Shown: in pieces, positions 9,985-60,602 of the stretch
Numbering within the stretch: position 1 is the first letter of the stretch
Layout: every line of letters starts with the position of its first letter
IMG/VR virus record: IMGVR_UViG_3300042291_000844
Coordinates: 173,725 to 237,724 of that record
DNA: 64,000 nt
From: a virus
Taxonomy: Duplodnaviria > Caudoviricetes
Strand: one strand, 5' to 3'
The notes under the pieces: generated by a model
The model's input: the letters and a program-made list of their open reading frames with translations, nothing else
Databases searched by the model: none
What the model was told of the DNA's origin: nothing
Translations under genes and position numbers: made by a program

Positions 9985-9993
9985 TTAATGTGT

Positions 9994-10671: not shown

Positions 10672-10672
10672 A

Positions 10673-10873: not shown

Positions 10874-10874
10874 A

Positions 10875-10988: not shown

Positions 10989-10994
10989 TGTTAT

Positions 10995-11031
10995 AAAGCT
11001 AAGATACGGCAGTTTTTCCGTATTTCCAAAT
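10995..11031 (-). promoter_or_regulatory. Bacteroidota-type promoter (TATCTTAG)
   Basis: Same motif; spacer holds the ATACGG/CCGTAT inverted repeat. Confidence 0.8.
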
Positions 11032-11102
11032 TATCCACCTGGTTTTTTAAAAGTTCTTGATTGAGTATCAATGGGTTAGCTAAGTGGTTGACTACCAATG
11101 GG

Positions 11103-11381
11103 TTAATTAGTTATTACGACCGGTTGACCATTCATTGCGTACGCACATCGGTAACCATATTCAGGTAGAGTGACGTGGTATATCCCTTTATTAAAATCAG
11201 TAGGGGATGTGACCAACGAAACTGTTTGTATTCCTGCCAGTTCGCAGTACGCTTGAAATTCATTAGGTTTCATACCCGGTCCACCTTCGGTGATATTGAC
11301 TAGGTTCATTAGGGATTTCAGACGGCTCATAGTGTTAGGGGTTATGTTCATAGGATTAGGGGTTAGGGGTTTCTCTCTCAT
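11103..11381 (-). CDS. Hypothetical early protein
   Basis: Start moved to ATG 11381 because the promoter occupies 11385-11421. Confidence 0.7.
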   Translation of the reverse strand: MREKPLTPNPMNITPNTMSRLKSLMNLVNITEGGPGMKPNEFQAYCELAGIQTVSLVTSPTDFNKGIYHVTLPEYGYRCAYAMNGQPVVITN

Positions 11382-48767: not shown

Positions 48768-50324
48768 TTAGAATGTCATTTTAGAACCAATTTGGAAGTT
48801 ATGTAATAAACTAAATTCGGGTACGAACGCTATGTTTGCTTTATATCCAAAGTTAAATCCAAATCTTTTACTAATTCTATAATCAATAGCAGTTCCTAAT
48901 AATGCACCCGGTGTTCTACTTACAGCAGTTCCACCAGTCACTGTGTTATATGCAATGGGTGCTGACATTACAAACACCTGTGGTGAAATTGTAAGTTTTT
49001 TTGAGTATTGATATGGTTTAGTCCAAAATACTACTACTGAGGTTGAAAGTGATGTATTATATTTCATTTCAGTACCTTGCATCATTAAGGTAATTACACC
49101 TAAGTTATATCCAAACGTACCTAATGTTGGGTGCGGTTTAATCCAAGTATATCCCAATAACCCCATCAACGTACCTTTAAGATATGCGGTGGTGAACGAG
49201 TAACTATTAAGTGCTTTTAATTTACCATCCTCAATTACCATTTTAGTAACTCCAGTTGATAGTGCGAATTGGTCAAATGTAGACCATATCAACGCAGATG
49301 CTGAATAAGATTTATCACCCATTAAGGATGATTTAGATACTCCTACTGACATCATTGCTGCATACTCACCATCTGCACTTTCAGTTCCTGCTAAATCAGA
49401 TGATAGCATCATTGGATTTGTAACTGCAGCTTTTTTCTTTTCTTTCTTTTCCTCTTTCTTCTCTTCCTTTTTTTCTTCTTTCTTTTCCTCTTTGGACTCT
49501 TCCTTTTTTTCTTCTTTCTTTTCTTCCGATTTACTTTCCTCTTTCTTTTCCTCTTTACTTTCAGATTTAGTTTCCTCTTTCTTTTCCTCTGATTTAGTTT
49601 CGGTTTTCTTTTCTTCAGTTTTTGATTCGGTTTTAGCTTCAGTCTTACTTTCCGTTTTAGTTTCGGTCTTACTCTCCGTAGATGAAGATGATGAAGAACT
49701 ACTCGATGAAGATGAAGATGAAGAACTACTACTTGATGATGAAGAACTACTTGCAGGTGGAGGTGTTGAACTACTACTTGCAGGTGGAGGTGTTGATGCA
49801 GGTGGTGGAGTTGCTACCGATGAAGTTGCTGCTGTTGCAGATGAACTTGCTGCGGATGATGCGGATGATGATGCGGCACCACTCGCGGATGAACTTGCTG
49901 CTTTTGCTGCTGCTTCTGCTGCTGCTTTCGCTGCTGCATCGGATGCTGCTTTTGCTGCTGCATCTGCTGCTGCTTGTGCGGCGGCGGATGCTGCTGCGGC
50001 TGCTGCTTGTGCTGCAGCCTGACTTACTGCTTGTTGGACGGTTTGTTGAACTACTACATTAGTTGGACATCCTAATGTGGAATATGCTAAATAGGTAGTT
50101 TGTAACCATGCATTTAATATACCACTTTGTACTTCTAAAGGAGTGAATGTTCGAACTTGATTATAAAATGAAACTACTGCATTACCACCTACATAAGTGG
50201 TGGATGCAATTTTTATTTCACCAGTACATTTATCTATGAATGTTTGCGTGAATACTTGAGCATTTACTTTTTGTGCAAATAGAAAAATACAAATTATTAT
50301 AAAGTTTACTATCCATTTTTTCAT
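48768..50324 (-). CDS. Secreted protein: low-complexity Ala/Pro/Ser/Glu-Lys stalk + C-terminal beta-barrel
   Basis: Signal peptide (VNA-Q), long low-complexity linker, amphipathic strands, terminal Phe. Confidence 0.7.
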   Translation of the reverse strand: MKKWIVNFIIICIFLFAQKVNAQVFTQTFIDKCTGEIKIASTTYVGGNAVVSFYNQVRTFTPLEVQSGILNAWLQTTYLAYSTLGCPTNVVVQQTVQQAVSQAAAQAAAAAASAAAQAAADAAAKAASDAAAKAAAEAAAKAASSSASGAASSSASSAASSSATAATSSVATPPPASTPPPASSSSTPPPASSSSSSSSSSSSSSSSSSSSSSSSTESKTETKTESKTEAKTESKTEEKKTETKSEEKKEETKSESKEEKKEESKSEEKKEEKKEESKEEKKEEKKEEKKEEKKEKKKAAVTNPMMLSSDLAGTESADGEYAAMMSVGVSKSSLMGDKSYSASALIWSTFDQFALSTGVTKMVIEDGKLKALNSYSFTTAYLKGTLMGLLGYTWIKPHPTLGTFGYNLGVITLMMQGTEMKYNTSLSTSVVVFWTKPYQYSKKLTISPQVFVMSAPIAYNTVTGGTAVSRTPGALLGTAIDYRISKRFGFNFGYKANIAFVPEFSLLHNFQIGSKMTF

Positions 50325-51151
50325 TACTTATTATTCAATCCGATTGAAATTTGAGAATACCCTCTAATTGGGTCAGTTTCTAATTTTAATGTAACGAATT
50401 TGAAATCTTTTATAATACCAACTTTAAATGTAGTGAATGAGGAATTTGATTTTGGAAATGAAATACCACCTAAGTCATCTTTACCTTGCCATCTGATAAC
50501 TTCATTGCCAAATCCTATCATACCATGTATACCTATTTTACCAATTCGTTTACCACCACCTACATATAAAGTTGATTCTTTTTTCCAATCTTCTTTACTA
50601 AGTGGAAAGTCAACATTATTAATTTGACCATATGGATAGTATTGGTTTTGGTCTATTGCATAAGTCATTACATAATCCATAATGAAATATGATTTTTTAC
50701 CACCAACGATTCCCCAAAATGCTGCTTGTTTATTAGTAGTATGCCCAAATCCAAATGAGGTATAAACTCTTTCTTTTCTAATAGTATCTCTTTTACCACT
50801 TTCGTATACATGAATTACACTTCTTTGTCTCCAGCCATAATCATCATACCAAATGTAAGGCATTGGTTGATACCATCCCCAATTACCCCAATAATAACCA
50901 AACTGATTATTTCTATTCCAATTTTGGAATCCACCTCTACCACGTGGTGGCAATGGTTGTGATTCTTGTGGTGGATTGTTTCTCCAACTACTCACATTAT
51001 TTTGTTGTGGTATAGATGGTTGAACTCTTGTTTGAGTTGATTGTGATGTTTGTGATGATGATGGAACACTTCCACCAGTTTGTCTCCAAGTTGATACTTG
51101 TGAAAATGCTAACGTTGGTAATAATACCAATAAGGTTATTATACTTTTCAT
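50324..51151 (-). CDS. Secreted/outer-membrane beta-barrel-like protein
   Basis: Start moved to MKSIITLL (TATTTATA 15 nt upstream); AFS-Q signal; amphipathic strands. Confidence 0.65.
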   Translation of the reverse strand: MKSIITLLVLLPTLAFSQVSTWRQTGGSVPSSSQTSQSTQTRVQPSIPQQNNVSSWRNNPPQESQPLPPRGRGGFQNWNRNNQFGYYWGNWGWYQPMPYIWYDDYGWRQRSVIHVYESGKRDTIRKERVYTSFGFGHTTNKQAAFWGIVGGKKSYFIMDYVMTYAIDQNQYYPYGQINNVDFPLSKEDWKKESTLYVGGGKRIGKIGIHGMIGFGNEVIRWQGKDDLGGISFPKSNSSFTTFKVGIIKDFKFVTLKLETDPIRGYSQISIGLNNK

Positions 51152-51155
51152 AGGA

Positions 51156-51872
51156 CTATCTTTTATATAAATATAACATTCCATTTCCATCAACACAAAT
51201 TGCACTCATATTCTCAATCCAATCACCACTATTTAAATATCTCTTATCGTTTATCATTCTGTCTTCCGGTTGGTGGATATGCCCACATATAACTCCATCA
51301 CATCCTTTTTTAGTTGCCATTGATAATGCAGTAGTTTCAAAATCATTTACATAATTTGTTGCAACCTTAACTGAATTTTTAATCTTTTGTGAAATGGATA
51401 TGTAAGGTAGTTTTCTCCACTTACGATATGTGTTGTAAACTCTATTTAACCAAAGTGCAAAATCATATCCCACTGCACCTATCTTTGATAACCATTTATA
51501 TTTTGTAATGAATACATCGATGACATCTCCATGAAAACAATAGTATTTTTTTTCGTTCACATTTAGGATATAATCCTCTCTTATTTCAATTGACCCAATG
51601 TGATTATTCATAAATTCTTGAATAAATTCATCGTGGTTTCCTCTAATCCAAATAATACGAGTTTTATTAGAAATCTTTAATAACTTACTGATTACTTTGG
51701 TATGCGATTTTCTCCATTTAGAACCTCTATTCAATGCCCAACCATCGATTATATCTCCATTAAGAATTAATAATTCCGTAGGATGTGATTCTATAAATTC
51801 TATGAATTCATCAGTTTTAGAATCTTTTATACCTAAGTGTAAATCTGATACTATGATTGCTTGATATTTCAT
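51156..51872 (-). CDS. Metallophosphoesterase of the PlcP/LpxH2 (UDP-2,3-diacylglucosamine hydrolase-like) family
   Basis: SDLHLG, NGDIIDGW, RGNHDE, FHGD, CGHIH, YLNSGDW; start at ATG 51872 (ATGA overlap). Confidence 0.85.
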   Translation of the reverse strand: MKYQAIIVSDLHLGIKDSKTDEFIEFIESHPTELLILNGDIIDGWALNRGSKWRKSHTKVISKLLKISNKTRIIWIRGNHDEFIQEFMNNHIGSIEIREDYILNVNEKKYYCFHGDVIDVFITKYKWLSKIGAVGYDFALWLNRVYNTYRKWRKLPYISISQKIKNSVKVATNYVNDFETTALSMATKKGCDGVICGHIHQPEDRMINDKRYLNSGDWIENMSAICVDGNGMLYLYKR

Positions 51873-52588
51873 GTCCAATAGTTGTGGTGGTGTTTAAAGA
51901 AGTTAGGATTATTTCGGTTTATATAACTTAGTATCATTATCTTAAACATCCATAATACTCCTTTATTTTTAAATCGCCTTGCAGATGTCCACACTCCTTT
52001 TGTTTTATGAATCCAAAATTTCTTTGGATTTATTTTTGATGAAAGAGAGTAATCTTCTGCAAATAATTCTTCAGGATTATATCCACCAATTTCCCAATAG
52101 GTTTTAGTATTAAAAATCTGAAACCCACCTACTGCAAATGGAGTGCCTAATAATGTACTTAATCTTTGAAATTTATCAAAGATACGGAAAACCCAATTCC
52201 ATCCCGTTTCTGTCTGAAATGGAGTGGTTACTAAATCTACTTCATAGTATGCAAGTGAAGTTTCCCATATATTTTTTAATAGATTTTTATTTCTTAACAT
52301 CACATCCGCATCTAAGAATAGAACGTATGGTGTTTTTACCAATTGTGAACCATTTAGACGGGCTTTAGCAGGATATCCACCATTGATGGTATGAATTACT
52401 ATGGAGAACCCAAAATCGATTCTTGCCCTGCTTAACCAATAAAGTGAATCCGCATCATCGGAACTATCTGCAATTACTACATTAGTTCCTTCTATATCAG
52501 ATTGTTTACAAATTAAACCTAAACAATCGTAAATGTTAATACCTTCATTTTTACAAGGTATAACGATAGTAAGTATATCTTTTAGCAT
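51869..52588 (-). CDS. GT2 glycosyltransferase
   Basis: IVIPCKNE, IADSSDD, FLDAD, GGY...AED, SARRF. Confidence 0.9.
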   Translation of the reverse strand: MLKDILTIVIPCKNEGINIYDCLGLICKQSDIEGTNVVIADSSDDADSLYWLSRARIDFGFSIVIHTINGGYPAKARLNGSQLVKTPYVLFLDADVMLRNKNLLKNIWETSLAYYEVDLVTTPFQTETGWNWVFRIFDKFQRLSTLLGTPFAVGGFQIFNTKTYWEIGGYNPEELFAEDYSLSSKINPKKFWIHKTKGVWTSARRFKNKGVLWMFKIMILSYINRNNPNFFKHHHNYWT

Positions 52589-52600
52589 ATAGGTATAAAT

Positions 52601-52626
52601 AAAAAATCCCCATTTTTATTGGGGGA
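52601..52626 (-). terminator. Intrinsic terminator followed by a TATTTATA motif
   Basis: TCCCCA/TGGGG stem plus T run. Confidence 0.7.
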
Positions 52627-52651
52627 CTTATGTATTATTAAATTATTAATA

Positions 52652-52885
52652 TTAATTTTTTTCTTTTAAACAAATTCGATTAAATTCTTCTTCTCTTAAT
52701 GCTATAGTTTGTTCAACGTGTCCTTGTTTTGAAACCAGATTGATAACATATAACCCCCATTGTTTTTTTTGTATCTCTATATCCTGACCTGTTATAAAAC
52801 CAAATTCCATTAATTTAAGTCTCATGCAAGGAACACAATTTTCACAAGGGTCGTTTTGTGGAACATCTATTACTTCATATATCAT
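52652..52885 (-). CDS. feoA: FeoA-family SH3-like protein
   Basis: RLKLMEFGFITGQDIEI...IALREEE. Confidence 0.75.
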   Translation of the reverse strand: MIYEVIDVPQNDPCENCVPCMRLKLMEFGFITGQDIEIQKKQWGLYVINLVSKQGHVEQTIALREEEFNRICLKEKN

Positions 52886-52897
52886 ATGTATAAATAT

Positions 52898-52925
52898 AAA
52901 AAAAGGGAGAATAAATCTCCCTTTT
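52898..52925 (-). terminator. Intrinsic terminator (copy 1 of the terminator+TATTTATA cassette)
   Basis: AAAAGGGAGA/TCTCCCTTTT. Confidence 0.85.
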
Positions 52926-52929
52926 GATA

Positions 52930-54132
52930 TTAATTACCTTTTGTTGGGAATCTAGTCCAACCACTAATCCATATTGGTTTGGATAATATTTCCATTTCAG
53001 CTTTTGTATAAGATACTTGTTTGTTACCATCTGATAAAGCTTTTATCTTTATATCAGTTGTAGTAAATATAGTTGATGTTGATTTGAAGTTTAATAATGG
53101 GTCATACGCCTGAATCTCATTATTTTGGAACTTGCTTACACCATCTTTATATGCTTGTGCAGTTTCATTACTTTCCAGTGAGAAACTACCTTTTTGATAT
53201 CCAACAATCTTTGAGTTAGTAATTGTGAATTGAGTTGCTCTCCTCCATCTTAAACCTAAATTGTGGTTTGCTAATGCGGTTACATCAAATGGTCCAACTA
53301 AAATCATATTATCTAATTTAGGATGTGTGAATGGTTGTGCGGATGTACCCGTTCCATCGTTATCACACTCTACACCATTTCCAGCATCACCGGCATCTAC
53401 AAATAATGGGTCTCTCTTTGATACTGAATAAGATACTGAACCTCTATATCCAAAATCAAAATCGTAATCATCATCCGCAGTTGCATAAGCGTATAAGTTC
53501 TTTGCATTTACAGTTCCACCAAAGAATTCAAATGCATCATCGTTAGCGTAAATAGTTTGAACATTCTCAATGATTGTTCCACTACCAACACCACCCAATG
53601 TTAGGGCGTTGATTTCAGAGTTTGGCATTGCTGCGATACCAGCGTATTCAATTCTTACATATTTTAGAATACCACTATTATCTATATCGTTAGTGCCACC
53701 ATATGGTCTACCAATACCACCTTCAATAGTTGGTTCGGAAGTTCTATTAGTAGTTGCCCTACCTAATAATACCACACCACCCCAATCACCAGGAGTTCTT
53801 TCACCTACTGCTTTGCCTGATGTAAATACAATTGGTTTTGCCGAAGTTCCTTCTGCTAAAAGTTGTGCACCTCTTTCAATAATTAATGCACCTTTCTCTG
53901 CAATATCAGAAATAATTGTTGTACCCGGTTGGATAATAAGTTTAGCACCATCAGTTACATAAACATATCCTTTTAATGTCCATACTTTGTCTGATGTCAA
54001 AGTTGTTGTTGTGTTAATGTTACCACTCAAAGTTGTTGAAGTTGGAACATTGATAGGAGTTATATCACCACCTAATTCTTTTTGGCAACTGAATAATCCT
54101 AATACCAAAATAATACCTAATAATTTTTTCAT
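52930..54132 (-). CDS. Surface lipoprotein with acidic beta-helix-like repeats (TBDR partner)
   Basis: Lipobox LFSC; GDWGGVVLLG, DNSGILKYVRIEYAG, DDAFEFFGG, DDDYDFD. Confidence 0.8.
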   Translation of the reverse strand: MKKLLGIILVLGLFSCQKELGGDITPINVPTSTTLSGNINTTTTLTSDKVWTLKGYVYVTDGAKLIIQPGTTIISDIAEKGALIIERGAQLLAEGTSAKPIVFTSGKAVGERTPGDWGGVVLLGRATTNRTSEPTIEGGIGRPYGGTNDIDNSGILKYVRIEYAGIAAMPNSEINALTLGGVGSGTIIENVQTIYANDDAFEFFGGTVNAKNLYAYATADDDYDFDFGYRGSVSYSVSKRDPLFVDAGDAGNGVECDNDGTGTSAQPFTHPKLDNMILVGPFDVTALANHNLGLRWRRATQFTITNSKIVGYQKGSFSLESNETAQAYKDGVSKFQNNEIQAYDPLLNFKSTSTIFTTTDIKIKALSDGNKQVSYTKAEMEILSKPIWISGWTRFPTKGN

Positions 54133-56609
54133 AATGTTAAATTTAATGTTAAAGAAATTGTTTGTTCATTGTTTGTTTTTATCAAATTTCGGTTTTGTAA
54201 TTTTTGATAATAGATTGATTGTTGGCCAAACAAATCACCTATTGCCAATTTTATTTCACCTTTATTTAATTTATGTAAAAGGGTCACATCCAATACATCT
54301 CTACTATTTTCAAAAATGTCTGGATAACCTTGAAATCCTATTGCTGATATTCTATAGCCTACTCTATTGTAAGTTACGTTAAGTGTGTTTTTGTTTTTGT
54401 GGATATTAACCCCACCATTTAATACATAATTTGATTGTCCTTGTAATTGTCTTTTAATTCCTTTCACGTTTACTTCCGAATTCATCACCGAAGCGTTTGT
54501 ATAAAAATCAAACCATTCAGTTACCTTTTTACGAAACTCTAATTCAACACCATAAAGATACGCGTTATCAGGGTTTGCGTAAGTTAATAATAAGTTAGAT
54601 GGAACTGAACCATCTGCTACTACTTGTTCAATTGGTTTTATGAAGTTCTTACCAAATAGGGATACTGAAATATTCTCTCCTACTTTTGGATATAATTCCC
54701 ATTTCAAATCTAAATTATATATGTCAGATTTTTCTAATTTAGGATTACCCAATAATTGTGCATTTCTTACAAAATCATAATAAGCAAAATTAGCTACTTC
54801 TCTAAACTCAGGTCTTGCTAATGTTTTACTTAATGAAAATCTATACTTTATTTTTTCTAAATTGTATGAAAGATTTAGAGATGGTAATACATCTAAATAC
54901 TCTCTATTAACTTTAACTTTACTTCCACTAAAATCTGCAGTAGATACATCAAATAAATTATATTCGGTTCTAACACCTGTATTTAATTTCCATAAACCAA
55001 ATTCTTTATCCCACATTACATACCCACTACCTAAATCAAAATCAGCAGTGTATTTGTCTGTATTGTTTGTTATCTCATCTAACATATCAGTTGAAAGATA
55101 ACGGAATATTCTTGCATTAAATCCTCTAATCTTTTTTAAGTAGCCACCACCAATCTTAATATCACCAAATGATTTGTTAATGTTACCACTAAAAGAGTTT
55201 TCATCCATCACACTCCAAAAACGATATGTATCTCTCCACGCCGTAGTATATGGTTCGTTTACTCCTAATGATTTTGTAATTGGATTAACTCTATAATCAG
55301 GTTGTTCTCTTAAAATTAAATTATACCCTAAATTAAAATCCCATGTTTTAAGTTTACCATCGAATTGAGAATTAACTACAATATTATTTATGTGGTTAGA
55401 TGAATTACTATGAACATTCTGAACATTATCATAGTTCTCACCATTTCTATTCATATAAGAATCATCCGTTTGATAGTTCACTAATGTTTTCCAACTATAT
55501 CGGTTCTCACCTAAATAAGTTAAATTCAATAAACCATTTGCGGAAAATCTTTTTGTATACAATGTATCTCTATAATCGTATGCTAATTCGGTTGAGGATT
55601 GGTAATCGATTCTATCTATGTAATTTATTCCATATGTGTTTCTAAGGGTTGAACTGAATAGAGCGTTGAATTTATTTTTCTTTACACCAAATGATATCCC
55701 ACCATTTAAGTTTGGAGATGATGTAACCCCATCTAGTATTGGATTATTAAATTGCTTTGTGTATAATCTTTTATCACCATTACTACTAACTCTATATCCG
55801 TATGTAGAGGGGAATGTGGAAGGGAATTCAGTAGCTTGAACTAACTTAAAATCCTTTAAAGTTGAAACTAAACCCCAACCACTTCCCAATGAGATATTAA
55901 AAAAGTTATCAGAAACTTCTTTTGTTGTAATCTGAACCAATCCACCACTCCAATCACCTGGCTGATTTGCCGATGCTGATTTAGCAACTATAATATTATC
56001 AATTAATGCTGTTGGAATTATATCAAATGAAAATGCTCTCCTATCAGGTTCGGTTGATGGTAGTAGGGTTTTGTTTAAGATAGCTGAATTGTATCTATCC
56101 GCCAATCCTCTTACTAATACAAACTTATCGTTTTGGATTGTTACACCACTTACTCTTTTAAGAGCATCACCAACATTTCTATCAGGTGTTTTTTTAATGA
56201 ATTCTATGGATACTCCATCGGATACTACATTACTATTTCGGATTGTTCTAACTACTGCTACATCAGTTACTTTTTGATTTGCTGCTCTAACAACGACTTC
56301 TGATAATTGCTTTGTATCATCCAACAATATAATATCAAATGTAGTATCTGATATTAAGTTTATTTGTGTTGTATAGGTAGTATAACCAACATAAGATGCT
56401 TTGATTTTATATACACCTAATTTTAGATTGATTTTGTATTCAGCGTTTTCATTAGAAATTGTAGAAAACTTATTACCATTCACATCTTCAAATGTAATAT
56501 GTGAAAAATATATTTTTTCGGTTTTGGATTTTGTTTCTCCACTTAATTGGGAGGTTTGAGAAAATGCTACAAATGGAAATAGTAACAAAATAAAAAAGAA
56601 ACGGGCCAT
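54129..56609 (-). CDS. TonB-dependent outer-membrane receptor
   Basis: Signal peptide, CarboxypepD_reg-like N-domain (ASYVGY), LSEVVV, plug DALKRVSGV..VRGLADRY, barrel RPEFRE..GNPKL. Confidence 0.92.
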   Translation of the reverse strand: MARFFFILLLFPFVAFSQTSQLSGETKSKTEKIYFSHITFEDVNGNKFSTISNENAEYKINLKLGVYKIKASYVGYTTYTTQINLISDTTFDIILLDDTKQLSEVVVRAANQKVTDVAVVRTIRNSNVVSDGVSIEFIKKTPDRNVGDALKRVSGVTIQNDKFVLVRGLADRYNSAILNKTLLPSTEPDRRAFSFDIIPTALIDNIIVAKSASANQPGDWSGGLVQITTKEVSDNFFNISLGSGWGLVSTLKDFKLVQATEFPSTFPSTYGYRVSSNGDKRLYTKQFNNPILDGVTSSPNLNGGISFGVKKNKFNALFSSTLRNTYGINYIDRIDYQSSTELAYDYRDTLYTKRFSANGLLNLTYLGENRYSWKTLVNYQTDDSYMNRNGENYDNVQNVHSNSSNHINNIVVNSQFDGKLKTWDFNLGYNLILREQPDYRVNPITKSLGVNEPYTTAWRDTYRFWSVMDENSFSGNINKSFGDIKIGGGYLKKIRGFNARIFRYLSTDMLDEITNNTDKYTADFDLGSGYVMWDKEFGLWKLNTGVRTEYNLFDVSTADFSGSKVKVNREYLDVLPSLNLSYNLEKIKYRFSLSKTLARPEFREVANFAYYDFVRNAQLLGNPKLEKSDIYNLDLKWELYPKVGENISVSLFGKNFIKPIEQVVADGSVPSNLLLTYANPDNAYLYGVELEFRKKVTEWFDFYTNASVMNSEVNVKGIKRQLQGQSNYVLNGGVNIHKNKNTLNVTYNRVGYRISAIGFQGYPDIFENSRDVLDVTLLHKLNKGEIKLAIGDLFGQQSIYYQKLQNRNLIKTNNEQTISLTLNLTL

Positions 56610-56661
56610 AAATTATTTAAGTTAGTTCCTCAATAATTATGCTCTCGCTTCTTTTAATAGG

Positions 56662-56688
56662 TTAATTCAATATTAACAAATTATTATC
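56662..56688 (-). promoter_or_regulatory. Three 11-bp-phased repeats (PhoB/OmpR-box-like) upstream of the TBDR
   Basis: Minus strand GATAA/GTTAA/ATTAA; plus-strand starts 56684, 56673, 56662. Confidence 0.4.
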
Positions 56689-56691
56689 ATA

Positions 56692-57393
56692 TTACCACTT
56701 TCTACAAGACCAATAATTTGCTTTTGTTCTTGGTCCTGGTGAATCACAATTCATTCTTGCTCTAAATGATTTTCTAGCAGCAGGATTATCTTTCTTAATT
56801 ACCATTCCCTTTTGGCCAAAGTTTACTTTAATAACTTTACCTGTCTTAGGATTCTTTACATACACTTTGAATTTCTTAACATCACCTTGCATTGGTTTGC
56901 CTAACTTAACTTCTCTACCTTTGTATTCTGCTTCATAAACACAATTACAATTTGCTTCTTTTAGTTCGGTTTTATATCCTTTTAAGTAATTTAAGAAATC
57001 CTCCTCATCATCATCCTCTACATCCAATTCATCGTACTCATCTGAATTATCGTATCCACATTTATGACAAGTATACGGGTCTTCTCCCCCATCTTCTAAA
57101 TCCCAATCCCAACCACACTCTGCACATTTTATTGTATCAGTTTCTACACCTTCTTTAATGCTTCTTTTTTGTTGAATTATTTGTTGTATTTGTGAGAATA
57201 TACTTTGTATATCTTTGTCTAATTGTTTTTCATCCGCACTCATTGGGGATTCTATATCCATATTAGAATATAGTTTTTTCTTTTTAGCAATTAAAACATC
57301 TACTTTTTTAATTAAATCGTGTCTTACCTTATCTAAATCTTTTATAATATCAGATGCAGTTGCTTCGTTTAATATTTTCTTTAACTTTATCAT
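56692..57393 (-). CDS. Modular phage protein with Zn ribbon and conserved basic C-terminal domain
   Basis: MIKLKKILNEA leader; CAEC..CHKC; RKSFRARMNC...ANYWSCRKW. Confidence 0.7.
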   Translation of the reverse strand: MIKLKKILNEATASDIIKDLDKVRHDLIKKVDVLIAKKKKLYSNMDIESPMSADEKQLDKDIQSIFSQIQQIIQQKRSIKEGVETDTIKCAECGWDWDLEDGGEDPYTCHKCGYDNSDEYDELDVEDDDEEDFLNYLKGYKTELKEANCNCVYEAEYKGREVKLGKPMQGDVKKFKVYVKNPKTGKVIKVNFGQKGMVIKKDNPAARKSFRARMNCDSPGPRTKANYWSCRKW

Positions 57394-57399
57394 ATTATT

Positions 57400-58119
57400 T
57401 TATTTTTCAAATACACCTTTTTTAATCATTCTGCCTAAAATTCTTGCACAAGCAATATCCAATGCTTTCTTTGTAGATGTTCCAATTGTTGATTGGTTAA
57501 ATTTAACTTCATCAACAGTTGCATCTGAAAGGAGTGATAATTCTCTTGTTGTAACCGCTTCACCCAATCCACTTGCTGCTATAATTTCTCCTGTCTCTGC
57601 ATTTGTAAATCTAACTTGTAAACCCAAACGAGTTACTACTTTATTCTTAACGCCATTACTTAAATTTACGGTCTCATCTTCGGATACTGAAAAATCATAC
57701 ACTTCAATTTCTACAAAATAATGTGCTAATCTAATCTTTCCTCTGCCATCTAACTTATCTTGTGAAATACCAGATTGAGAAGCTTGAAACTGCTTTACCA
57801 TGCGGTTCTTAATTTCTGTCTTATCCTCCGTAAACGTAAACCTGTTAAGATTCTCCAAATATTCCATCGTGATATTAGCCACACCCAAACCCACTTTCTT
57901 TTCTTTGAGTTCAGGATACTGCTCATAAACTTCATCACCAATACCACATTTGAGAATCTGTATTGGGATTTGTTTACCTTCATAATCTAAGAATTGACTA
58001 ATGTCTACTTTTGTTTCGAAACTTGCTTTGTAATTTTCTGTCTTTGTTGTTCCCACAGTTTGGGCAATGGCAACATTGCTTAGTAAAACACCAAGCAAGA
58101 ATATTAATAATTGTTTCAT
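57400..58119 (-). CDS. CsgG/HfaB-family secreted protein
   Basis: Signal peptide; RFTFTE, IEVYDFSVS, LQVRFTNAETGEII, ALDIAC. Confidence 0.7.
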   Translation of the reverse strand: MKQLLIFLLGVLLSNVAIAQTVGTTKTENYKASFETKVDISQFLDYEGKQIPIQILKCGIGDEVYEQYPELKEKKVGLGVANITMEYLENLNRFTFTEDKTEIKNRMVKQFQASQSGISQDKLDGRGKIRLAHYFVEIEVYDFSVSEDETVNLSNGVKNKVVTRLGLQVRFTNAETGEIIAASGLGEAVTTRELSLLSDATVDEVKFNQSTIGTSTKKALDIACARILGRMIKKGVFEK

Positions 58120-58128
58120 ATATTTTTT

Positions 58129-58872
58129 TTATGGATTCCATTTATTTAATGCACTTATATAATTACTTGTCATATGGTCTTTTGCTGTCTTACCAGTGAA
58201 AACTGCTTTAAGGTATTCACCTACTCTTTGCCAATCAACCATCCATTCTTTTATTTTACCCTCATCATCAATCCTTAATTCGGTATTAACATGATGATAT
58301 CCAATATTTGGTGCACGAGTAACAACATCTAAATTATGAACTATTCTTAGGGATTCTATCGGTGATTTATCAAAGTTTTGTTTAAATATTTTATTTCCAA
58401 CTCTTGGACTACCAATGGTACAGCATATAATTTTATTTGATTTGTAAATCGAATAAATCTCATATGCAGATAAGGTTGAAACTGCAGCACCCAAACTATG
58501 ACCACACACAATAATATTATCTATTGAATGTTCTTGACCTAAGTTTTTAAGTGCAACATCTAACGCCTGATATGTTTTATCTTTAACTGCTTCCCACGAT
58601 GATTTGAATCCAATATGAACTTTTTCACCTTCTTCAATGAAAGGAACTTTATCAATTGATGCATCATTTTGGAAATCCTTTTTAGATGAACTCCCTCTCC
58701 AAACAATATAAATTGATTTATCTTTTGTTGCAACGAATCCCTGAGTATCGGATTTTTTATCCTCAACCCATTTAACTAATTTTAAACCCAATGATTTAAA
58801 ATCAATATCTTTTTGGTAAGAATAAACTTTTTCAGTTAAACCAACATTATATAATATTTCATCCTTTGTCAT
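58129..58872 (-). CDS. Lipase class 3
   Basis: VWRGS, VHIGF, CGHSLG, IGSPRVGN, DVVTRAP, terminal DH. Confidence 0.92.
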   Translation of the reverse strand: MTKDEILYNVGLTEKVYSYQKDIDFKSLGLKLVKWVEDKKSDTQGFVATKDKSIYIVWRGSSSKKDFQNDASIDKVPFIEEGEKVHIGFKSSWEAVKDKTYQALDVALKNLGQEHSIDNIIVCGHSLGAAVSTLSAYEIYSIYKSNKIICCTIGSPRVGNKIFKQNFDKSPIESLRIVHNLDVVTRAPNIGYHHVNTELRIDDEGKIKEWMVDWQRVGEYLKAVFTGKTAKDHMTSNYISALNKWNP

Positions 58873-58890
58873 AGTATTTTTTATTTTATA

Positions 58891-59610
58891 TTATGCACCG
58901 AATGCTTTAGTAAATCCTTCAGGACAAGTTTTTGTACATATCAAATCTGCAATAACAGGTGCAAATGCTGCTCCAATCGCAATACCAACTCCAGCCGGTG
59001 TTGCCCATAACTCTGCAGAATCTAAACTTTTACCTAAACAATTTGAAATTATATTTTTTAATAGCGTGTGGTCAATACTATCACTAACGTATGGTATTGC
59101 TAAAAATCCTTCTGTTATAATTTCACTCATCGCCATTACTACCACCACTTTAGCTGCCTTATCCGCAACATAAAGAATTGGTTGTGCCATAAGCGATAGA
59201 GTGGTTGATGTTGCAGCTCCCGCTGGTTGTTCTGGCGCAAATGCTGCCACACACCCCAACCCAATTGCTGCGGTTACTCCTATATTACAAGCATTTTTAT
59301 CGGCCCATTGATATGCATCAATTACCCCTTCTTTTACTTCTTCGTAACCTTCTTTGATTACAGACTCTATTTCATTTCCAATATTAATGAGTACCGGTAC
59401 TACTTCTTCTTCCCACTCTCTACCAGTTACATCTTCAATTCTATGATTTATTTCAGGATGGTCGTGTATGTACCTTATTGCTTTATCGGTAAGTCCCCAT
59501 GATTCACATGTTGAACAAGGGCCGTCACCACCAAATCCATACCATCTTACATTGTTATCTCCGCAATCTGAGCGATGATAAACTATTCCGTCTCCGTTTC
59601 TGTCTGCCAT
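58891..59610 (-). CDS. Hypothetical protein with Ala/Gly-rich hydrophobic helices and Cys pairs
   Basis: 239 aa; TATTTATA upstream. Confidence 0.7.
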   Translation of the reverse strand: MADRNGDGIVYHRSDCGDNNVRWYGFGGDGPCSTCESWGLTDKAIRYIHDHPEINHRIEDVTGREWEEEVVPVLINIGNEIESVIKEGYEEVKEGVIDAYQWADKNACNIGVTAAIGLGCVAAFAPEQPAGAATSTTLSLMAQPILYVADKAAKVVVVMAMSEIITEGFLAIPYVSDSIDHTLLKNIISNCLGKSLDSAELWATPAGVGIAIGAAFAPVIADLICTKTCPEGFTKAFGA

Positions 59611-59645
59611 AATTTTTTTCTTTTTTGTTTATTTTATATAAATAT

Positions 59646-59673
59646 AAAAAAAGGGAGAAATCATCTCCCTTTT
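59646..59673 (-). terminator. Intrinsic terminator (copy 2 of the cassette)
   Basis: AAAAGGGAGA/TCTCCCTTTT, same flank as 52898-52925. Confidence 0.85.
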
Positions 59674-59677
59674 AAAT

Positions 59678-59932
59678 TTATCCCAATTCTTCTTCCTTTG
59701 GTTCTTCTTTTTTATTAAAGATTTTACCCACTTCAGCGATACCAAAAGCACCTAATGTTATGTACATAAATGAATTGTAAATAAATTCATTTACAAGTAA
59801 TTCTTTTCCTAAATAACCAGTTACCAAATCAGTAACTGCAAATGCAGTCATTACAATAAATGATGCAAACCCTACGATTGTTTTCTCATTCAAATCATTT
59901 GAATCTTTGAAAATATCAGTAAATTTAGCCAT
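59678..59932 (-). CDS. Small 2-TM protein, holin-like
   Basis: Two TM helices and a charged C-terminus. Confidence 0.55.
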   Translation of the reverse strand: MAKFTDIFKDSNDLNEKTIVGFASFIVMTAFAVTDLVTGYLGKELLVNEFIYNSFMYITLGAFGIAEVGKIFNKKEEPKEEELG

Positions 59933-59978
59933 AGTCTTTTTTCCTTTTTTTTAATTATGAAACTATGTAACCTTTATT

Positions 59979-60602
59979 TTATCCTACTTGTTCGGCATCT
60001 TCATCTCTGATTTTGCCACATTTTAAACATTCTTCTTCACCATCACCATCCAAATCTCCCCATACGTGCTCACATTGTCTATGTGCAAAGTACATATCGA
60101 TTTTACCATCACCATCAAAATCTATACCATCCATTGTACCATCACCATCTTCATCCACTTCAATACCTGTTCTTGGTTTTGTGGTTGGTACTTGTTCAAA
60201 TGTATCGTTTACCTTTTCTATTTTTGAGTTTTCAATAGCGGTTTGAAACGCCTCTGGTATGATTGGTGTGTTGTTTGGTGGAGTTACCGGCATATCAGCA
60301 GTGTTGCTCATTGCCGTACCATCTTCCTCATCCATCTTTTGAACTAACATCTTATCCTTATCCGTATCACTAAACCAATAGTCAATGATTTTACCATAAG
60401 AACCAATGAAAGCTCCTAATAATAAAAGTAAAAGTTCTTTCCACTCACCTTCTATTGCTGATTTATTTAATATGGCGAAGAACATTCCACCTATAATAAA
60501 CATAAATCCACCCAATACCAATGCGGTGATGTACCATCTTCTGGCCATCATATTACTTAATAAATCTTTAAAACCACTTGGGGGTTGATTATTTTCTGAC
60601 AT
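59979..60602 (-). CDS. 2-TM protein with DxDGDG Ca-binding-like repeats
   Basis: DEDGDG, DFDGDG, DLDGDG; CxH..CxxC. Confidence 0.7.
   Translation of the reverse strand: MSENNQPPSGFKDLLSNMMARRWYITALVLGGFMFIIGGMFFAILNKSAIEGEWKELLLLLLGAFIGSYGKIIDYWFSDTDKDKMLVQKMDEEDGTAMSNTADMPVTPPNNTPIIPEAFQTAIENSKIEKVNDTFEQVPTTKPRTGIEVDEDGDGTMDGIDFDGDGKIDMYFAHRQCEHVWGDLDGDGEEECLKCGKIRDEDAEQVG

What the first reader, a model, noticed from the sequence alone, without database searches (positions are those of the whole stretch)
52652..56690. Phage-encoded TonB-dependent receptor + surface lipoprotein + FeoA unit
Seen: an intact 826-aa TBDR overlapping a 400-aa acidic beta-helix lipoprotein, then a terminator, then feoA, all inside a phage-like gene array. 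Known: TBDR/lipoprotein pairs import scarce nutrients in Bacteroidota. From memory, this pair type often sits near Pho-regulon genes (to be verified). Inference: an auxiliary outer-membrane uptake system for phosphate compounds or iron, and possibly a change in phage-receptor landscape.
Basis: partly seen in the sequence, partly recalled or inferred. Interest (0 to 1): 0.85.

Follow-up and report, generated by a model that had tools for sequence, protein, structure and literature searches.

The report
Phage-borne phosphate-starvation outer-membrane importer pair
A large freshwater phage of Bacteroidota carries an intact outer-membrane importer and its surface "lid" lipoprotein, copied from the host's phosphate-starvation gene set with what looks like the host's phosphate switch still in front; the neighbouring feoA gene is unrelated to the pair.

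Summary
The minus strand carries an 826-aa TonB-dependent transporter (54129-56609). A 400-aa beta-helix lipoprotein (52930-54132) overlaps it by 4 nt, followed by a terminator and a 77-aa FeoA-domain gene.

The pair is truly viral. At least 144 IMG/VR contigs encode it, including complete genomes of 171-326 kb with a tail-sheath gene. It is under purifying selection (dN/dS about 0.15), and the phage lipoproteins form one clade.

It belongs to the ElpS / FII / BT4056 (Beta_helix_4) lipoprotein-plus-transporter module that bacteria switch on under phosphate starvation. Bacterial homologues sit beside phoB/phoR-like genes, a PitA/PhoU-like pair and a PlcP-like phosphoesterase.

An 11-bp-period TTAAYA direct repeat, shaped like a Pho box, precedes both the bacterial and the phage transporter genes. 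It also precedes a second phage module, a GT2 glycosyltransferase plus metallophosphoesterase.

A predicted complex places the lipoprotein as a lid on extracellular loops L1-L10 (score 0.82; best control 0.00).

feoA is not part of the unit, and nothing links the pair to iron.

Phage transporters of this class have been reported before, and this scan has described the bacterial module in other genomes. The phage-borne lid pair with a retained Pho-like box appears new. The substrate is unknown.

The parts
56660..56687 (-). Pho-box-like array: three 11-bp-period direct repeats, ATAATA-atttg-TTAATA-ttgaa-TTAACC, 51-78 nt upstream of the transporter start codon
   Evidence: Sequence read; pattern hits. 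The same motif (at most 1 mismatch) is found in 32 of 54 distinct phage transporter upstreams (background 0.01 per 150 nt) and in 39 of 59 bacterial homologue upstreams (background 0.02 per 200 nt). It is one of only two intergenic sites with two or more exact units on the coding strand of the window.
56631..56639 (-). Conserved TAATTATTG element, possibly a variant of the Bacteroidota -7 promoter box TAnnTTTG, 21 nt upstream of the ATG
   Evidence: CATA(A/G)TTATTG(G/A)GGAACTAACTT is conserved in many phage upstreams. It occurs only twice in the window, so it is not a genome-wide phage promoter. Bacterial homologues have TAnnTTTG at the matching place behind their repeat arrays. Its role as a promoter is inferred.
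54129..56609 (-). TonB-dependent transporter, 826 aa: signal peptide, CarboxypepD_reg-like N-domain, TonB box (SEVVVRA, about residues 103-109), plug, 22-strand barrel
   Evidence: At least 144 viral contigs encode relatives of 63-91% identity. Median dN/dS is 0.144.
52930..54132 (-). Beta-helix lipoprotein (PF28492 Beta_helix_4; ElpS/FII/BT4056 type), 400 aa, lipobox Cys16; predicted lid of the transporter
   Evidence: It lies directly downstream in 73 of 80 phage loci, and 68 of 71 pairs share the 4-nt overlap. Median dN/dS is 0.152. Complex prediction: score 0.82 against best control 0.00.
52901..52925 (-). Intrinsic-terminator-like hairpin plus T-run that closes the two-gene operon
52652..52885 (-). 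FeoA-domain small protein (77 aa; four invariant Cys: C14, C17, C20, C72). It lies inside the finding's range but is not part of the unit.
   Evidence: It is absent from all pair-bearing relatives. It is present in phages without the pair and beside the GT2-phosphoesterase module in L181 and L187. A DNA contig skips 52612-52929.
52633..52649 (-). Second Pho-box-like site (TTAATAATTTAATAATA), upstream of the GT2-phosphoesterase pair
   Evidence: The motif is found at -58 to -60 in 29 of 44 distinct phage GT2 upstreams (background 0.009 per 150 nt).
52608..52624 (-). Hairpin plus T-run between the second Pho-like site and the GT2 start; conserved in relatives; role unknown
51869..52588 (-). GT2-family glycosyltransferase (239 aa), a neighbouring module
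   Evidence: Pfam PF00535, E 3e-13. It precedes the phosphoesterase in 74 of 80 viral loci.
51156..51878 (-). Calcineurin-like metallophosphoesterase (240 aa; PlcP/LpxH-like), a neighbouring module
   Evidence: It is about 40% identical to phosphoesterases beside the bacterial transporter-lipoprotein loci. At least 386 viral contigs encode relatives.

Best explanation
The two genes are a phage copy of the Bacteroidota phosphate-starvation outer-membrane module. That module is a non-SusC TonB-dependent transporter plus a surface-exposed beta-helix lipoprotein of the ElpS / FII (Fjoh_0546) / BT4056 family (Pfam Beta_helix_4).

A lineage of large freshwater myoviruses acquired the pair once, from a Chitinophagales- or Cytophagales-like host. 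The phages trimmed the extracellular loops, kept the pair under purifying selection, and moved it as a cassette within a variable region of their genomes.

Proposed mechanism:
1. In an infected, phosphate-starved cell, the host's PhoB binds the retained 11-bp-period TTAAYA repeats in front of the operon and turns it on.
2. The host's Sec, Lol/surface-export and BAM machineries insert both proteins.
3. The lipoprotein sits as a lid on extracellular loops L1-L10 of the barrel and captures a still unknown phosphorus-containing ligand.
4. The host's TonB-ExbBD powers import, supplying phosphorus for replicating a genome of roughly 200 kb.

The neighbouring GT2 plus PlcP-like phosphoesterase module carries the same upstream motif. 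It may spare phosphorus by remodelling lipids.

What is shown: gene integrity, viral context, family membership, selection, single origin, the phosphate-linked neighbourhood in bacteria, and enrichment of the motif. What is only predicted: the lid-on-barrel complex. What is inferred: PhoB control, expression during infection, the phosphorus substrate, and the benefit to the phage.
For: Viral context
- At least 144 IMG/VR contigs encode the transporter at 63-91% identity.
- 73 of 80 have the lipoprotein directly downstream, and 68 of 71 pairs share the ATGA overlap.
- Four carrier records are CheckV-complete genomes of 171-326 kb with a sheath gene; one has direct terminal repeats and holds the pair 18-21 kb from an end.
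- Both junctions recur in independent assemblies (L041/L051 on one side, L013/L030 on the other).

Selection and origin
- Median dN/dS is 0.144 (transporter) and 0.152 (lipoprotein).
- 70 of 71 transporter ORFs are of full length, 725-845 aa.
- 39 phage lipoprotein representatives form one clade (SH-aLRT 95) nested among Chitinophagales sequences.

Family
- Close homologues carry PF28492.
- The protein atlas names Beta_helix_4, score 0.98.
- The model is a beta-helix, pLDDT 87.9.

Phosphate link
- The transporter-then-lipoprotein order is seen in about 68 of 80 Bacteroidota loci.
- Neighbours in those loci: PhoB-like regulator (16 loci), PhoR-like kinase (15), PlcP-like phosphoesterase (10), PhoU_div (9), PHO4 (7).
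- Fjoh_0545/0546, with the same Pfam architecture, lies in the phoBR operon and is induced by phosphate depletion only (PMC8115612).
- ElpS is made under phosphate starvation (PMC2996285).

Motif
- TTAAYA-N5-TTAAYA with at most 1 mismatch: 32 of 54 phage transporter upstreams (background 0.01); 39 of 59 bacterial ones (background 0.02); 29 of 44 phage GT2 upstreams (background 0.009).
- Two or more exact units: 32 of 59 bacterial transporter upstreams against 17 of 665 other ORFs.
- Bacterial arrays are followed by the TAnnTTTG -7 box.
- The 11-nt direct-repeat unit is the defining architecture of PHO boxes (PMC4415409).

Lid
- Complex score 0.82 against best control 0.00. In the tool's calibration this mark was reached by 58 of 80 solved complexes and 2 of 110 mismatched pairs; those counts hold only roughly here, because my own alignments were used.
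- The three runs agree in at least 89% of contacts, and the partner's pLDDT is at least 91.
- All ten contact segments fall in extracellular loops L1-L10 of the transporter model and none in periplasmic turns.
- The same lid idea was proposed for BT4055/BT4056 (bioRxiv 10.1101/2023.03.17.533168).
Against: - No experiment shows expression, membrane insertion or transport for the phage copies.
- The substrate is unknown even for the bacterial family. The preprint that proposed the lid reports no clear mutant phenotype for three of its nine pairs, presumably including BT4055/4056. In Caulobacter the receptor cc0171 was expressed constitutively, unlike elpS (PMC2996285).
- The Pho-box reading rests on motif shape and gene neighbourhood only. 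No Bacteroidota PhoB site has been mapped in the papers I could search. Any OmpR-family regulator binds such repeats.
- The upstream regions compared are related to each other, so the p-values overstate independence.
- The phage DNA is AT-rich. In the window as a whole the relaxed motif is only about twice as frequent as in shuffles (23 against 12.7).
- The phage -7-like element (TAATTATTG) is not a perfect TAnnTTTG.
- In the GT2 module a terminator-like hairpin lies between the motif and the start codon, which the simple model does not explain.
- The complex was predicted without the plug and N-domain.
- Phage transporters are only 25-41% identical to bacterial ones and have lost loop segments, so their specificity may have changed.
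Confidence: 0.6

Rival explanations
1. Superinfection exclusion or receptor remodelling. The phage-made barrel and its lid replace, mask or crowd the host transporter that competing phages use as a receptor. This would resemble T5 Llp blocking FhuA, or lambda Lom blocking LamB. Nutrient import would be secondary or absent.
For: TonB-dependent transporters are common phage receptors (established knowledge). A 2026 preprint on outer-membrane proteins of huge phages proposes exactly this (bioRxiv 10.64898/2026.10.24.761521). The phage transporters have shortened extracellular loops compared with bacterial ones, and the lid is predicted to cover loops L1-L10; both would hide epitopes.
Against: A phosphate-type regulatory motif is conserved in front of the operon, which an exclusion function does not require. 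Plug, TonB box and barrel are all kept under purifying selection; a mere mask would not need a working TonB box. The pair occurs next to a second phosphate-type module in some phages. No competing phage or receptor is known.
Confidence: 0.15
2. An importer for a nutrient that contains no phosphorus. Candidates are iron or a siderophore, as the neighbouring feoA suggested to the first reader, or carbohydrate, as proposed for the 'SusC' transporter of marine megaphages.
For: feoA lies 44 nt downstream. Michniewski et al. annotated the distant homologue in LR745206 and Mar_Mega_1 as SusC for carbohydrate uptake (PMC9723777). The lipoprotein has a pectate-lyase-like fold.
Against: feoA is not linked to the pair in any relative. 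No SusD gene is present, and no SusC-family model was hit; the best NCBIfam match is TonB-Xanth-Caul. Fjoh_0545/0546 are induced by phosphate depletion and stay repressed under nitrogen and iron limitation (PMC8115612). The bacterial neighbours are phosphate genes, not iron or glycan genes.
Confidence: 0.08
3. An assembly chimera or host contamination, or a recently captured passenger with no function.
For: The window itself contains no structural hallmark gene. GenBank phages that carry homologues are all uncultured records, and some are short faecal contigs that may be bacterial.
Against: At least 144 viral contigs from many metagenomes carry the pair, including CheckV-complete genomes and one with terminal repeats. 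Independent assemblies share both junctions. The phage copies are monophyletic and at most 72% (lipoprotein) or 62% (transporter) identical to any bacterial copy found. dN/dS is about 0.15.
Confidence: 0.03

Closest known systems
Fjoh_0545 (transporter) / Fjoh_0546 (lipoprotein 'FII') in the phoBR operon of Flavobacterium johnsoniae (Lidbury et al. 2021, PMC8115612)
   Same: The transporter has the same Pfam architecture (PF07715, PF13715, PF14905). A pectin-lyase-fold lipoprotein lies directly downstream. The genomic link to phoBR is also seen in the bacterial homologues fetched here. The pair is strongly induced by phosphate depletion, and the lipoprotein is abundant in the exoproteome.
   Different: This copy is on a phage genome. 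The transporter is about 110 aa shorter in its loops and only 25-41% identical to bacterial homologues. No phoBR, OprP or other operon members came with it. I could not align directly to the Fjoh sequences because they are not held.
BT4055 / BT4056 of Bacteroides thetaiotaomicron, a proposed non-SusD 'lid' for a non-SusC transporter (Price, Deutschbauer, Arkin 2023, bioRxiv 10.1101/2023.03.17.533168)
   Same: Same lipoprotein family (BT4056 is 40% identical to Fjoh_0546). Same gene order. In both, the lipoprotein is predicted to sit on the outer face of the barrel.
   Different: That prediction found few high-confidence contacts. The phage pair gives a large, confident interface (about 150 contacts, score 0.82 against 0.00). 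The context here is a phage.
ElpS (CC0170) with TonB-dependent receptor CC0171 of Caulobacter crescentus (Le Blastier et al. 2010, PMC2996285)
   Same: A surface-anchored lipoprotein made under phosphate starvation, next to a TonB-dependent receptor. The transporter here matches the TonB-Xanth-Caul subfamily model best.
   Different: Only a distant relative. The gene order is reversed (the lipoprotein comes first). ElpS is released by a T2SS-dependent protease, and no T2SS lies near the phage genes. cc0171 was reported to be constitutive.
Cyanophage pstS/phoA: phage phosphate genes controlled by the host's PhoBR through a Pho box (Zeng & Chisholm 2012; from my own knowledge, not read here)
   Same: A phage copy of a host Pho-regulon uptake gene that keeps a host-type regulatory box, so that the phage senses the host's phosphate status.
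   Different: Those are a periplasmic binding protein and a phosphatase of cyanobacteria. This is an outer-membrane, TonB-powered importer plus lid in phages of heterotrophic Bacteroidota. Regulation here is inferred, not shown.
TonB-dependent receptors reported in huge phages (Mar_Mega_1 and LR745206, PMC9723777; 22-stranded outer-membrane proteins in bioRxiv 10.64898/2026.10.24.761521)
   Same: Phage-encoded 22-strand transporters. LR745206 holds a distant homologous pair (27% and 39% identity). The 2026 preprint notes phosphate-acquisition genes as neighbours in aquatic phages.
   Different: Those papers do not describe the partner lipoprotein or a regulatory box (no mention of 'lipoprotein'). 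One of them called the gene SusC for carbohydrate uptake. The lineage here has genomes of roughly 170-330 kb and a compact transporter.

Membership tests
TonB-dependent transporter | N-terminal signal peptide and TonB box ahead of the plug | tested here: met
   The N-terminus is MARFFFILLLFPFVAFSQ. LSEVVVRA lies at about residues 101-109, in a low-confidence linker (99-113), and aligns with the conserved (V/I)(V/T)(V/I) box of 34 homologues.
TonB-dependent transporter | Plug domain inside a 22-strand beta-barrel | tested here: met
   Plug PF07715 scores 32.1 bits (cut-off 23.9) and the barrel PF14905 scores 94.2 bits. In the AF2 model (pLDDT 85.5) the DSSP strands read as 22 barrel strands from 236 to 825.
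TonB-dependent transporter | Energy-dependent import through TonB-ExbBD | not testable with these tools
   Needs uptake assays in a tonB background.
SusC/SusD pair | SusC-family barrel (TIGR04056) with an adjacent SusD-family lipoprotein | tested here: not met
   The only NCBIfam match is TIGR01782 TonB-Xanth-Caul. The partner is a beta-helix and has no SusD match.
ElpS / FII / BT4056 lid lipoproteins (Pfam PF28492 Beta_helix_4) | Lipoprotein signal peptide with lipobox cysteine | tested here: met
   The signal peptide ends ...LGLFS-C16, followed by QKE. The Cys column is present in the consensus of 20 homologues.
ElpS / FII / BT4056 lid lipoproteins (Pfam PF28492 Beta_helix_4) | Beta_helix_4 domain (right-handed parallel beta-helix) | tested here: met
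   All 120 listed homologues (81-98% identical) carry PF28492. The atlas clusters are 100% PF28492, score 0.98. The AF2 model is a beta-helix. The model itself is not in the local Pfam copy.
ElpS / FII / BT4056 lid lipoproteins (Pfam PF28492 Beta_helix_4) | Encoded next to, and co-transcribed with, a non-SusC TonB-dependent transporter | tested here: met
   A 4-nt overlap in the window and in 68 of 71 phage pairs. The adjacent order is seen in about 68 of 80 bacterial loci.
ElpS / FII / BT4056 lid lipoproteins (Pfam PF28492 Beta_helix_4) | Binds the extracellular face of its transporter | tested here: inconclusive
   The prediction supports it: score 0.82 against best control 0.00. In the tool's calibration the mark was reached by 58 of 80 solved complexes and 2 of 110 mismatched pairs, counts that hold only roughly with my own alignments. 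The runs agree in at least 89% of contacts and the partner's pLDDT is at least 91. Contacts lie only in loops L1-L10. This is a model, not a measurement.
ElpS / FII / BT4056 lid lipoproteins (Pfam PF28492 Beta_helix_4) | Induced by phosphate starvation; surface exposed or released | not testable with these tools
   Shown for Fjoh_0546 and ElpS in the literature (PMC8115612, PMC2996285). For the phage copy there is only the upstream motif.
Phage Pho-regulon auxiliary genes under host PhoB control | Phage homologue of a host Pho-regulon gene | tested here: met
   The bacterial homologues' neighbourhoods hold phoB/phoR-like genes, PhoU_div-PHO4 and a PlcP-like gene. The family is induced by phosphate depletion in F. 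johnsoniae (PMC8115612).
Phage Pho-regulon auxiliary genes under host PhoB control | Pho box (tandem 11-nt direct-repeat units) at the promoter | tested here: inconclusive
   The repeats are present and strongly enriched upstream of both phage and bacterial copies. That PhoB binds them has not been shown for any Bacteroidota.
Phage Pho-regulon auxiliary genes under host PhoB control | Higher expression in infected phosphate-starved hosts | not testable with these tools
   There is no cultured phage-host pair. Contigs from RNA libraries cannot show level or condition.
FeoA | FeoA (SH3-like) domain above Pfam's cut-off | tested here: inconclusive
   The window's protein scores 20 bits against a cut-off of 23. 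All 8 family members match, best E 1.3e-7. A FeoB partner was not looked for.
PlcP plus glycosyltransferase lipid-renovation pair (for the neighbouring module) | Mn-dependent metallophosphoesterase next to a diacylglycerol glycosyltransferase of family GT4, GT21 or GT28 | tested here: inconclusive
   The phosphoesterase fold is met, and the protein is about 40% identical to phosphoesterases next to MJ1255-type glycosyltransferases in bacterial phosphate loci. The phage transferase, however, is GT2, with only a weak GT21 match (E 2.3e-4).

The most novel reading that the evidence does not exclude
Large freshwater phages of heterotrophic Bacteroidota carry a miniature, host-wired Pho regulon. 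It consists of an outer-membrane, TonB-powered importer with its lid, and separately a glycosyltransferase plus PlcP-like phosphoesterase. Each module sits behind a retained PhoB-type repeat array, so the virus reads the host's phosphate status and boosts phosphorus capture and sparing only when needed. This would be the first outer-membrane transporter-plus-lid complex shown to act as a viral auxiliary gene set. It would also offer a compact, streamlined version of a transporter family whose substrate is still unknown.
Probability: 0.45. Interest if true: 0.72.

Novelty: new variant of a known kind. Interest (0 to 1): 0.62.

Why it matters
Phosphorus often limits production in lakes, and a genome of roughly 200 kb is costly in phosphorus.

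- **Wider reach of a known strategy.** If these phages switch on an outer-membrane importer through the host's own phosphate sensor, the strategy known from cyanophage pstS/phoA extends to heterotrophic Bacteroidota and to the outer membrane.
- **A lead on an unsolved transporter family.** The phage copies are loop-trimmed and strongly conserved, with a confidently predicted lid interface. They are a convenient minimal version of the ElpS/FII/BT4056 module, which is widespread and among the most strongly phosphate-induced proteins in Flavobacterium, yet has no known substrate.
- **A testable regulatory site.** The TTAAYA-N5 repeat array followed by a TAnnTTTG box gives a concrete candidate Pho box for Bacteroidota.

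Tried and rejected
- **PHROGs:** no family for the transporter, the lipoprotein or feoA.
- **Cultured phages:** GenBank/INPHARED hold no homologue in any cultured phage. The only hits are LR745206 and short faecal contigs.
- **Solved structures:** a PDB sequence search with the lipoprotein profile found nothing. Foldseek against the PDB gave only weak generic beta-helix matches, best E 0.01 (GH87, AlgE, pectate lyases, tailspikes); this says nothing about function.
- **Terminase_6C:** not found in five carrier genomes. This is uninformative, and the sheath gene was used instead.
- **PF28492:** cannot be searched as a family because it is missing from the local library.
- **No whole genome is held for the window**.
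- **Three-unit pattern search:** a strict TTAAYA pattern found nothing in the Sediminibacterium genome, because its units read GTAACA. The motif was therefore re-defined as TAAYA units with an 11-bp period.
- **Hypervariable transporter idea:** suggested by L041/L051 (flanking proteins 100% identical, transporter 89%). Rejected, because the whole region is uniformly about 90% identical at the DNA level.
- **Genome-wide phage promoter idea:** the conserved upstream elements might have been a general phage promoter. Rejected, because they are almost unique in the window.
- **Third repeat site (4237):** it lies inside an ORF and is probably chance.
- **Expression:** contigs from three RNA libraries hold fragments of both genes at 90-98% identity. 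Contigs cannot show transcription level, strand or condition, DNA carry-over is possible, and stretches without cover mean nothing.
- **Literature:** I found no paper on a phage-borne lid lipoprotein, on phage plcP, or on a Bacteroidota Pho box.

Full report
**1. Observation**

Every ORF of 200 aa or more in the 64-kb window lies on the minus strand (a few shorter frames on the other strand overlap them), GC is about 32%, and no tRNA was found.

- ORF 54129-56609 encodes an 826-aa protein with four recognisable parts:
  - a signal peptide;
  - a CarboxypepD_reg-like N-domain;
  - a Plug domain (32.1 bits, cut-off 23.9);
  - an OMP_b-brl_3 barrel (94.2 bits).
- Its best NCBIfam match is TIGR01782 TonB-Xanth-Caul, 180 bits, below that model's cut-off. 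No SusC-family model was hit.
- An AF2 model built on 35 homologues has mean pLDDT 85.5. It shows an N-terminal beta-sandwich, a disordered linker that holds the TonB box (LSEVVVRA), a plug, and strands that read as a 22-strand barrel from residue 236 to 825.
- ORF 52930-54132 overlaps the transporter's stop codon by 4 nt. It encodes a 400-aa protein starting MKKLLGIILVLGLFSC.
  - It has no match in the local Pfam copy.
  - Its close homologues carry PF28492, which the protein atlas names Beta_helix_4, 'pectate-lyase like beta helix'.
  - Its AF2 model (pLDDT 87.9) is a beta-helix.
  - The mature protein has pI 5.0.
- A hairpin plus T-run follows at 52925-52901.
- Next comes a 77-aa ORF (52652-52885). 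Its FeoA match is just below Pfam's cut-off, but all eight members of its family match FeoA, best E 1.3e-7.

**2. The pair is truly viral**

- A scan of IMG/VR found 144 contigs that encode a relative of the transporter at 63-91% identity.
- In 73 of the 80 loci kept, the lipoprotein follows directly; the others end at a contig edge.
- Of 71 complete pairs, 68 keep the ATGA overlap. All but one transporter ORF are of full length, 725-845 aa.
- Five carrier records were checked. Four are CheckV-complete genomes of 171-326 kb and contain a tail-sheath gene. One of these, 171 kb long, has direct terminal repeats and holds the pair 18-21 kb from one end.
- The window's flanking ORFs are shared with these contigs.
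- Both junctions recur in independent assemblies. L041 and L051 share the upstream side at about 90% DNA identity. L013 and L030 show lipoprotein, GT2, phosphoesterase and the next three ORFs in the window's order.
- Notes by earlier readers on other windows of this genome mention capsid, sheath, portal and a tRNA array. I did not check these directly.
- Twenty-one lake-water DNA runs hold 38-74% of the sampled words of the stretch.

Chimerism or host contamination is therefore very unlikely.

**3. Selection and origin**

- Among the phage copies, median pairwise dN/dS is 0.144 for the transporter and 0.152 for the lipoprotein.
- In a maximum-likelihood tree of 39 phage and 67 bacterial lipoproteins, the phage sequences form one clade (SH-aLRT 95).
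  - Their nearest neighbours are two Lake Mendota MAG contigs, L089 and L115.
  - The clade is nested among Chitinophagales sequences.
- L089 has a compact, phage-type transporter (62% identity) and lipoprotein (72%), but bacterial-looking neighbours: a kinase-like protein, a response-regulator-like protein and a weak transposase-like fragment. The direction of transfer there is open.
- Other bacterial homologues are 42-65% (lipoprotein) and 25-41% (transporter) identical.
- Phage transporters lack several loop insertions that bacterial ones have.
- The phage transporters come in two forms. One is about 825 aa and has the N-terminal domain; the other is about 750 aa and lacks it.
- Against L001 and L003, the cassette is 85-89% identical at the DNA level while the flanks are 65-78% identical and partly rearranged. 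The pair therefore behaves as a conserved cassette in a variable region.

**4. feoA is not part of the unit**

- No pair-bearing relative has a feoA homologue, even in a relaxed search.
- Its eight closest viral homologues lie in related phages, none near a copy of the pair; in three of them (L081-L083) it sits between the same backbone genes as in the window.
- Further copies sit just downstream of the GT2-phosphoesterase module in L181 and L187.
- The pair's own terminator separates feoA from the pair.
- One DNA contig in a lake run skips 52612-52929, which removes feoA.

**5. What the pair is**

*Gene neighbourhood in bacteria.* I fetched 80 Bacteroidota loci with a profile of the lipoprotein. 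About 68 have the transporter directly upstream of the lipoprotein. I clustered all neighbouring ORFs and scanned the recurrent clusters. The result:

| Neighbour | Loci |
|---|---|
| OmpR-type regulator, best match PhoB | 16 |
| Histidine kinase matching PnpS/PhoR models | 15 |
| Calcineurin-like phosphoesterase | 10 |
| PhoU_div (DUF47) | 9 |
| PHO4/PitA | 7 |

- The phosphoesterase is about 40% identical to the window's 51156-51878. In four loci it lies next to an MJ1255-type glycosyltransferase.
- The other recurrent neighbours are housekeeping genes.

*Match to the literature.*
- This fits the 'PhoBR operon' of F. johnsoniae. There Fjoh_0545 is a transporter with the same three Pfam domains, and Fjoh_0546 is lipoprotein FII with a pectin-lyase fold.
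  - Both are among the proteins most strongly induced by phosphate depletion.
  - Both stay repressed under nitrogen and iron limitation.
  - FII is abundant in the exoproteome (PMC8115612).
- BT4056 of B. thetaiotaomicron is 40% identical to Fjoh_0546. It was proposed as a lid for the non-SusC transporter BT4055 (bioRxiv 10.1101/2023.03.17.533168).
- The distant relative ElpS of Caulobacter is a surface lipoprotein made under phosphate starvation, next to the receptor CC0171 (PMC2996285).
- Earlier agents of this scan described the bacterial module, with Pho boxes, in several other genomes. My neighbourhood and motif results agree with them.

**6. A Pho-box-like array is retained**

*In the phages.*
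- Upstream regions of the phage transporters share two elements. The first is TTAATAATTTG(A/T)TAATA at about -60 to -90. The second is CATA(A/G)TTATTG(G/A)GGAACTAACTT at about -35 to -10.
- Neither is a genome-wide phage promoter.
- The first element is a direct repeat with an 11-bp period. In the window it reads ATAATA-atttg-TTAATA-ttgaa-TTAACC (56687-56660).

*Counts for TTAAYA-N5-TTAAYA with at most one mismatch.*

| Upstream regions | With motif | Background |
|---|---|---|
| Phage transporter (distinct) | 32 of 54 | 0.01 per 150 nt of the same loci |
| Bacterial transporter | 39 of 59 | 0.02 per 200 nt |
| Bacterial phosphoesterase | 4 of 8 | 0.02 per 200 nt |
| Bacterial regulator | 4 of 18 | 0.02 per 200 nt |
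| Seven housekeeping gene groups (43 upstreams) | 0 | 0.02 per 200 nt |

*Exact TAAYA units at 11-bp spacing.*
- Two or more units occur upstream of 32 of 59 bacterial transporters, against 17 of 665 other ORFs (Fisher p about 3e-27).
- Three or more units occur upstream of 12 of 59, against 2 of 665.
- These p-values ignore the relatedness of the sequences.

*Architecture.*
- Bacterial arrays can hold six units; L112 has GTAACA-N5 six times. They are followed within about 9 nt by the Bacteroidota -7 box TAnnTTTG. That is where a PhoB-type activator site would replace the upstream promoter element.
- Two 11-nt direct-repeat units define PHO boxes in general (PMC4415409).
- On the coding strand of the window, two or more exact units occur at only three places. 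These are in front of the transporter, in front of the GT2-phosphoesterase pair (52649-52633), and once inside an ORF.

I read this as a retained host regulatory site, most likely for PhoB. Binding has not been shown.

**7. Lid prediction**

- I folded barrel residues 230-826 with the mature lipoprotein (residues 28-400).
- The score was 0.82 (three runs: 0.80-0.83), against 0.00 for the best of three controls.
- In the tool's calibration, this mark was reached by 58 of 80 solved complexes and by 2 of 110 mismatched pairs. These counts hold only roughly here, because my own alignments were used.
- The runs agree in at least 89% of contacts, and the partner's pLDDT is at least 91.
- The ten barrel segments in contact are 269-277, 336-341, 395-397, 441-462, 503-516, 559-563, 609-618, 665-674, 716 and 760-762.
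  - All fall in the extracellular loops L1-L10 of the full-length model.
  - None falls in a periplasmic turn.
- On the lipoprotein, one long face of the helix makes the contacts, including the region around the conserved acidic motif at 219-227.
- The model supports binding; it does not show it.

**8. Neighbouring module**

- The GT2 glycosyltransferase (51869-52588) and the metallophosphoesterase (51156-51878) overlap by 10 nt.
- At least 386 viral contigs encode the phosphoesterase. GT2 precedes it in 74 of the 80 loci kept, mostly without the transporter pair nearby.
- Their upstream regions carry the same repeat motif at -58 to -60 in 29 of 44 distinct loci. It is followed by a conserved hairpin plus T-run.
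- PlcP, a Mn-dependent metallophosphoesterase, acts with a glycosyltransferase to replace phospholipids by glycolipids under phosphorus stress (PMC8231724).
- The phage enzyme may do the same. However, its partner is a GT2 enzyme, not one of the known lipid families GT4, GT21 or GT28, and I could not compare it with authentic PlcP sequences.

**9. Prior art and novelty**

- TonB-dependent receptors in huge phages have been reported before. Mar_Mega_1 and LR745206 were read as SusC for carbohydrate uptake (PMC9723777).
- A 2026 preprint lists 1,603 phage outer-membrane beta-barrels, including 22-stranded ones.
  - It notes phosphate-acquisition neighbours in aquatic phages.
  - It discusses receptor remodelling.
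- LR745206 carries a distant copy of this very pair.
- None of the papers I could search describes the partner lipoprotein, the assignment to this family, or a regulatory box in phages.
- I therefore rate the finding a new variant of a known kind: a phage auxiliary phosphorus-acquisition module that sits in the outer membrane.

**10. Verdict**

- The phosphate interpretation is supported by homology, gene neighbourhood and a conserved regulatory motif.
- The iron reading and the three-gene unit are not supported.
- The receptor-landscape idea remains an untested rival.
- Expression, localisation and the substrate need experiments.
- Contigs from RNA libraries of three studies contain fragments of both genes at 90-98% identity. 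This does not establish transcription.

Noticed in passing
window 51156-52649 (-): A GT2 glycosyltransferase and a PlcP/LpxH-like metallophosphoesterase form a tightly conserved pair. At least 386 viral contigs encode the phosphoesterase, and 74 of the 80 kept have GT2 upstream. The same TTAAYA-N5 repeat motif sits at -58 to -60. This may be a phage-encoded lipid-renovation module under phosphate control.
   Followed up: partly
window 52608-52624 (-), and homologous sites in L169-L232: A conserved GC-rich hairpin plus T-run lies between the Pho-like repeat and the GT2 start codon. It sits where a 5' leader or promoter would be. It could be a terminator for the upstream gene, an attenuator, or something else.
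   Followed up: no
window 52652-52885 (-); L081-L088, L181, L187: The small FeoA-domain protein has four invariant cysteines (C14-x2-C17-x2-C20 and C72), which is unusual for FeoA. It is a backbone gene of this phage group and is independent of the transporter pair.
   Followed up: partly
L003, L013, L025 and other loci, compared with the window: Phage transporters come in two intact forms. One is about 825 aa and has the CarboxypepD_reg-like N-domain. The other is about 750 aa, with the signal peptide followed directly by the TonB box. Both forms lack several extracellular-loop insertions present in bacterial homologues.
   Followed up: partly
L089 (MAG contig labelled Spirosomataceae, Lake Mendota), 7497-11215: This is the closest non-viral copy: transporter 62% and lipoprotein 72% identical, of the compact phage type. 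Its neighbours look bacterial (kinase-like and response-regulator-like proteins, plus a weak transposase-like fragment). It could be the donor lineage, a gene transferred back from a phage, or a mis-binned mobile element.
   Followed up: partly
window 58129-58872 (-): A class-3 lipase gene (PF01764, E 7e-28) is conserved in related phages (62-96% identity). It lies in the same variable region as the phosphate-type modules.
   Followed up: no
window 56692-57393 (-): The ORF just upstream of the transporter shares a 200-nt stretch of 70-73% identity with hypothetical genes of several Pelagibacter phages. Its C-terminus matches phrog_7595.
   Followed up: no
L112 9,800-9,950 and other bacterial loci: Bacterial homologues carry arrays of up to six (G/T)TAAYA-N5 units directly upstream of a TAnnTTTG box. 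This is a concrete candidate for the so far unmapped Pho box of Bacteroidota. The motif also occurs upstream of some phoB-like and PlcP-like genes.
   Followed up: partly
window 50000-60000, DNA run X1: Summed contig depth over the transporter-lipoprotein genes is several times that of the flanks. Contigs also join the cassette to other neighbours. This is consistent with many co-occurring phage variants sharing the cassette, though depth figures from contigs are not reliable.
   Followed up: no
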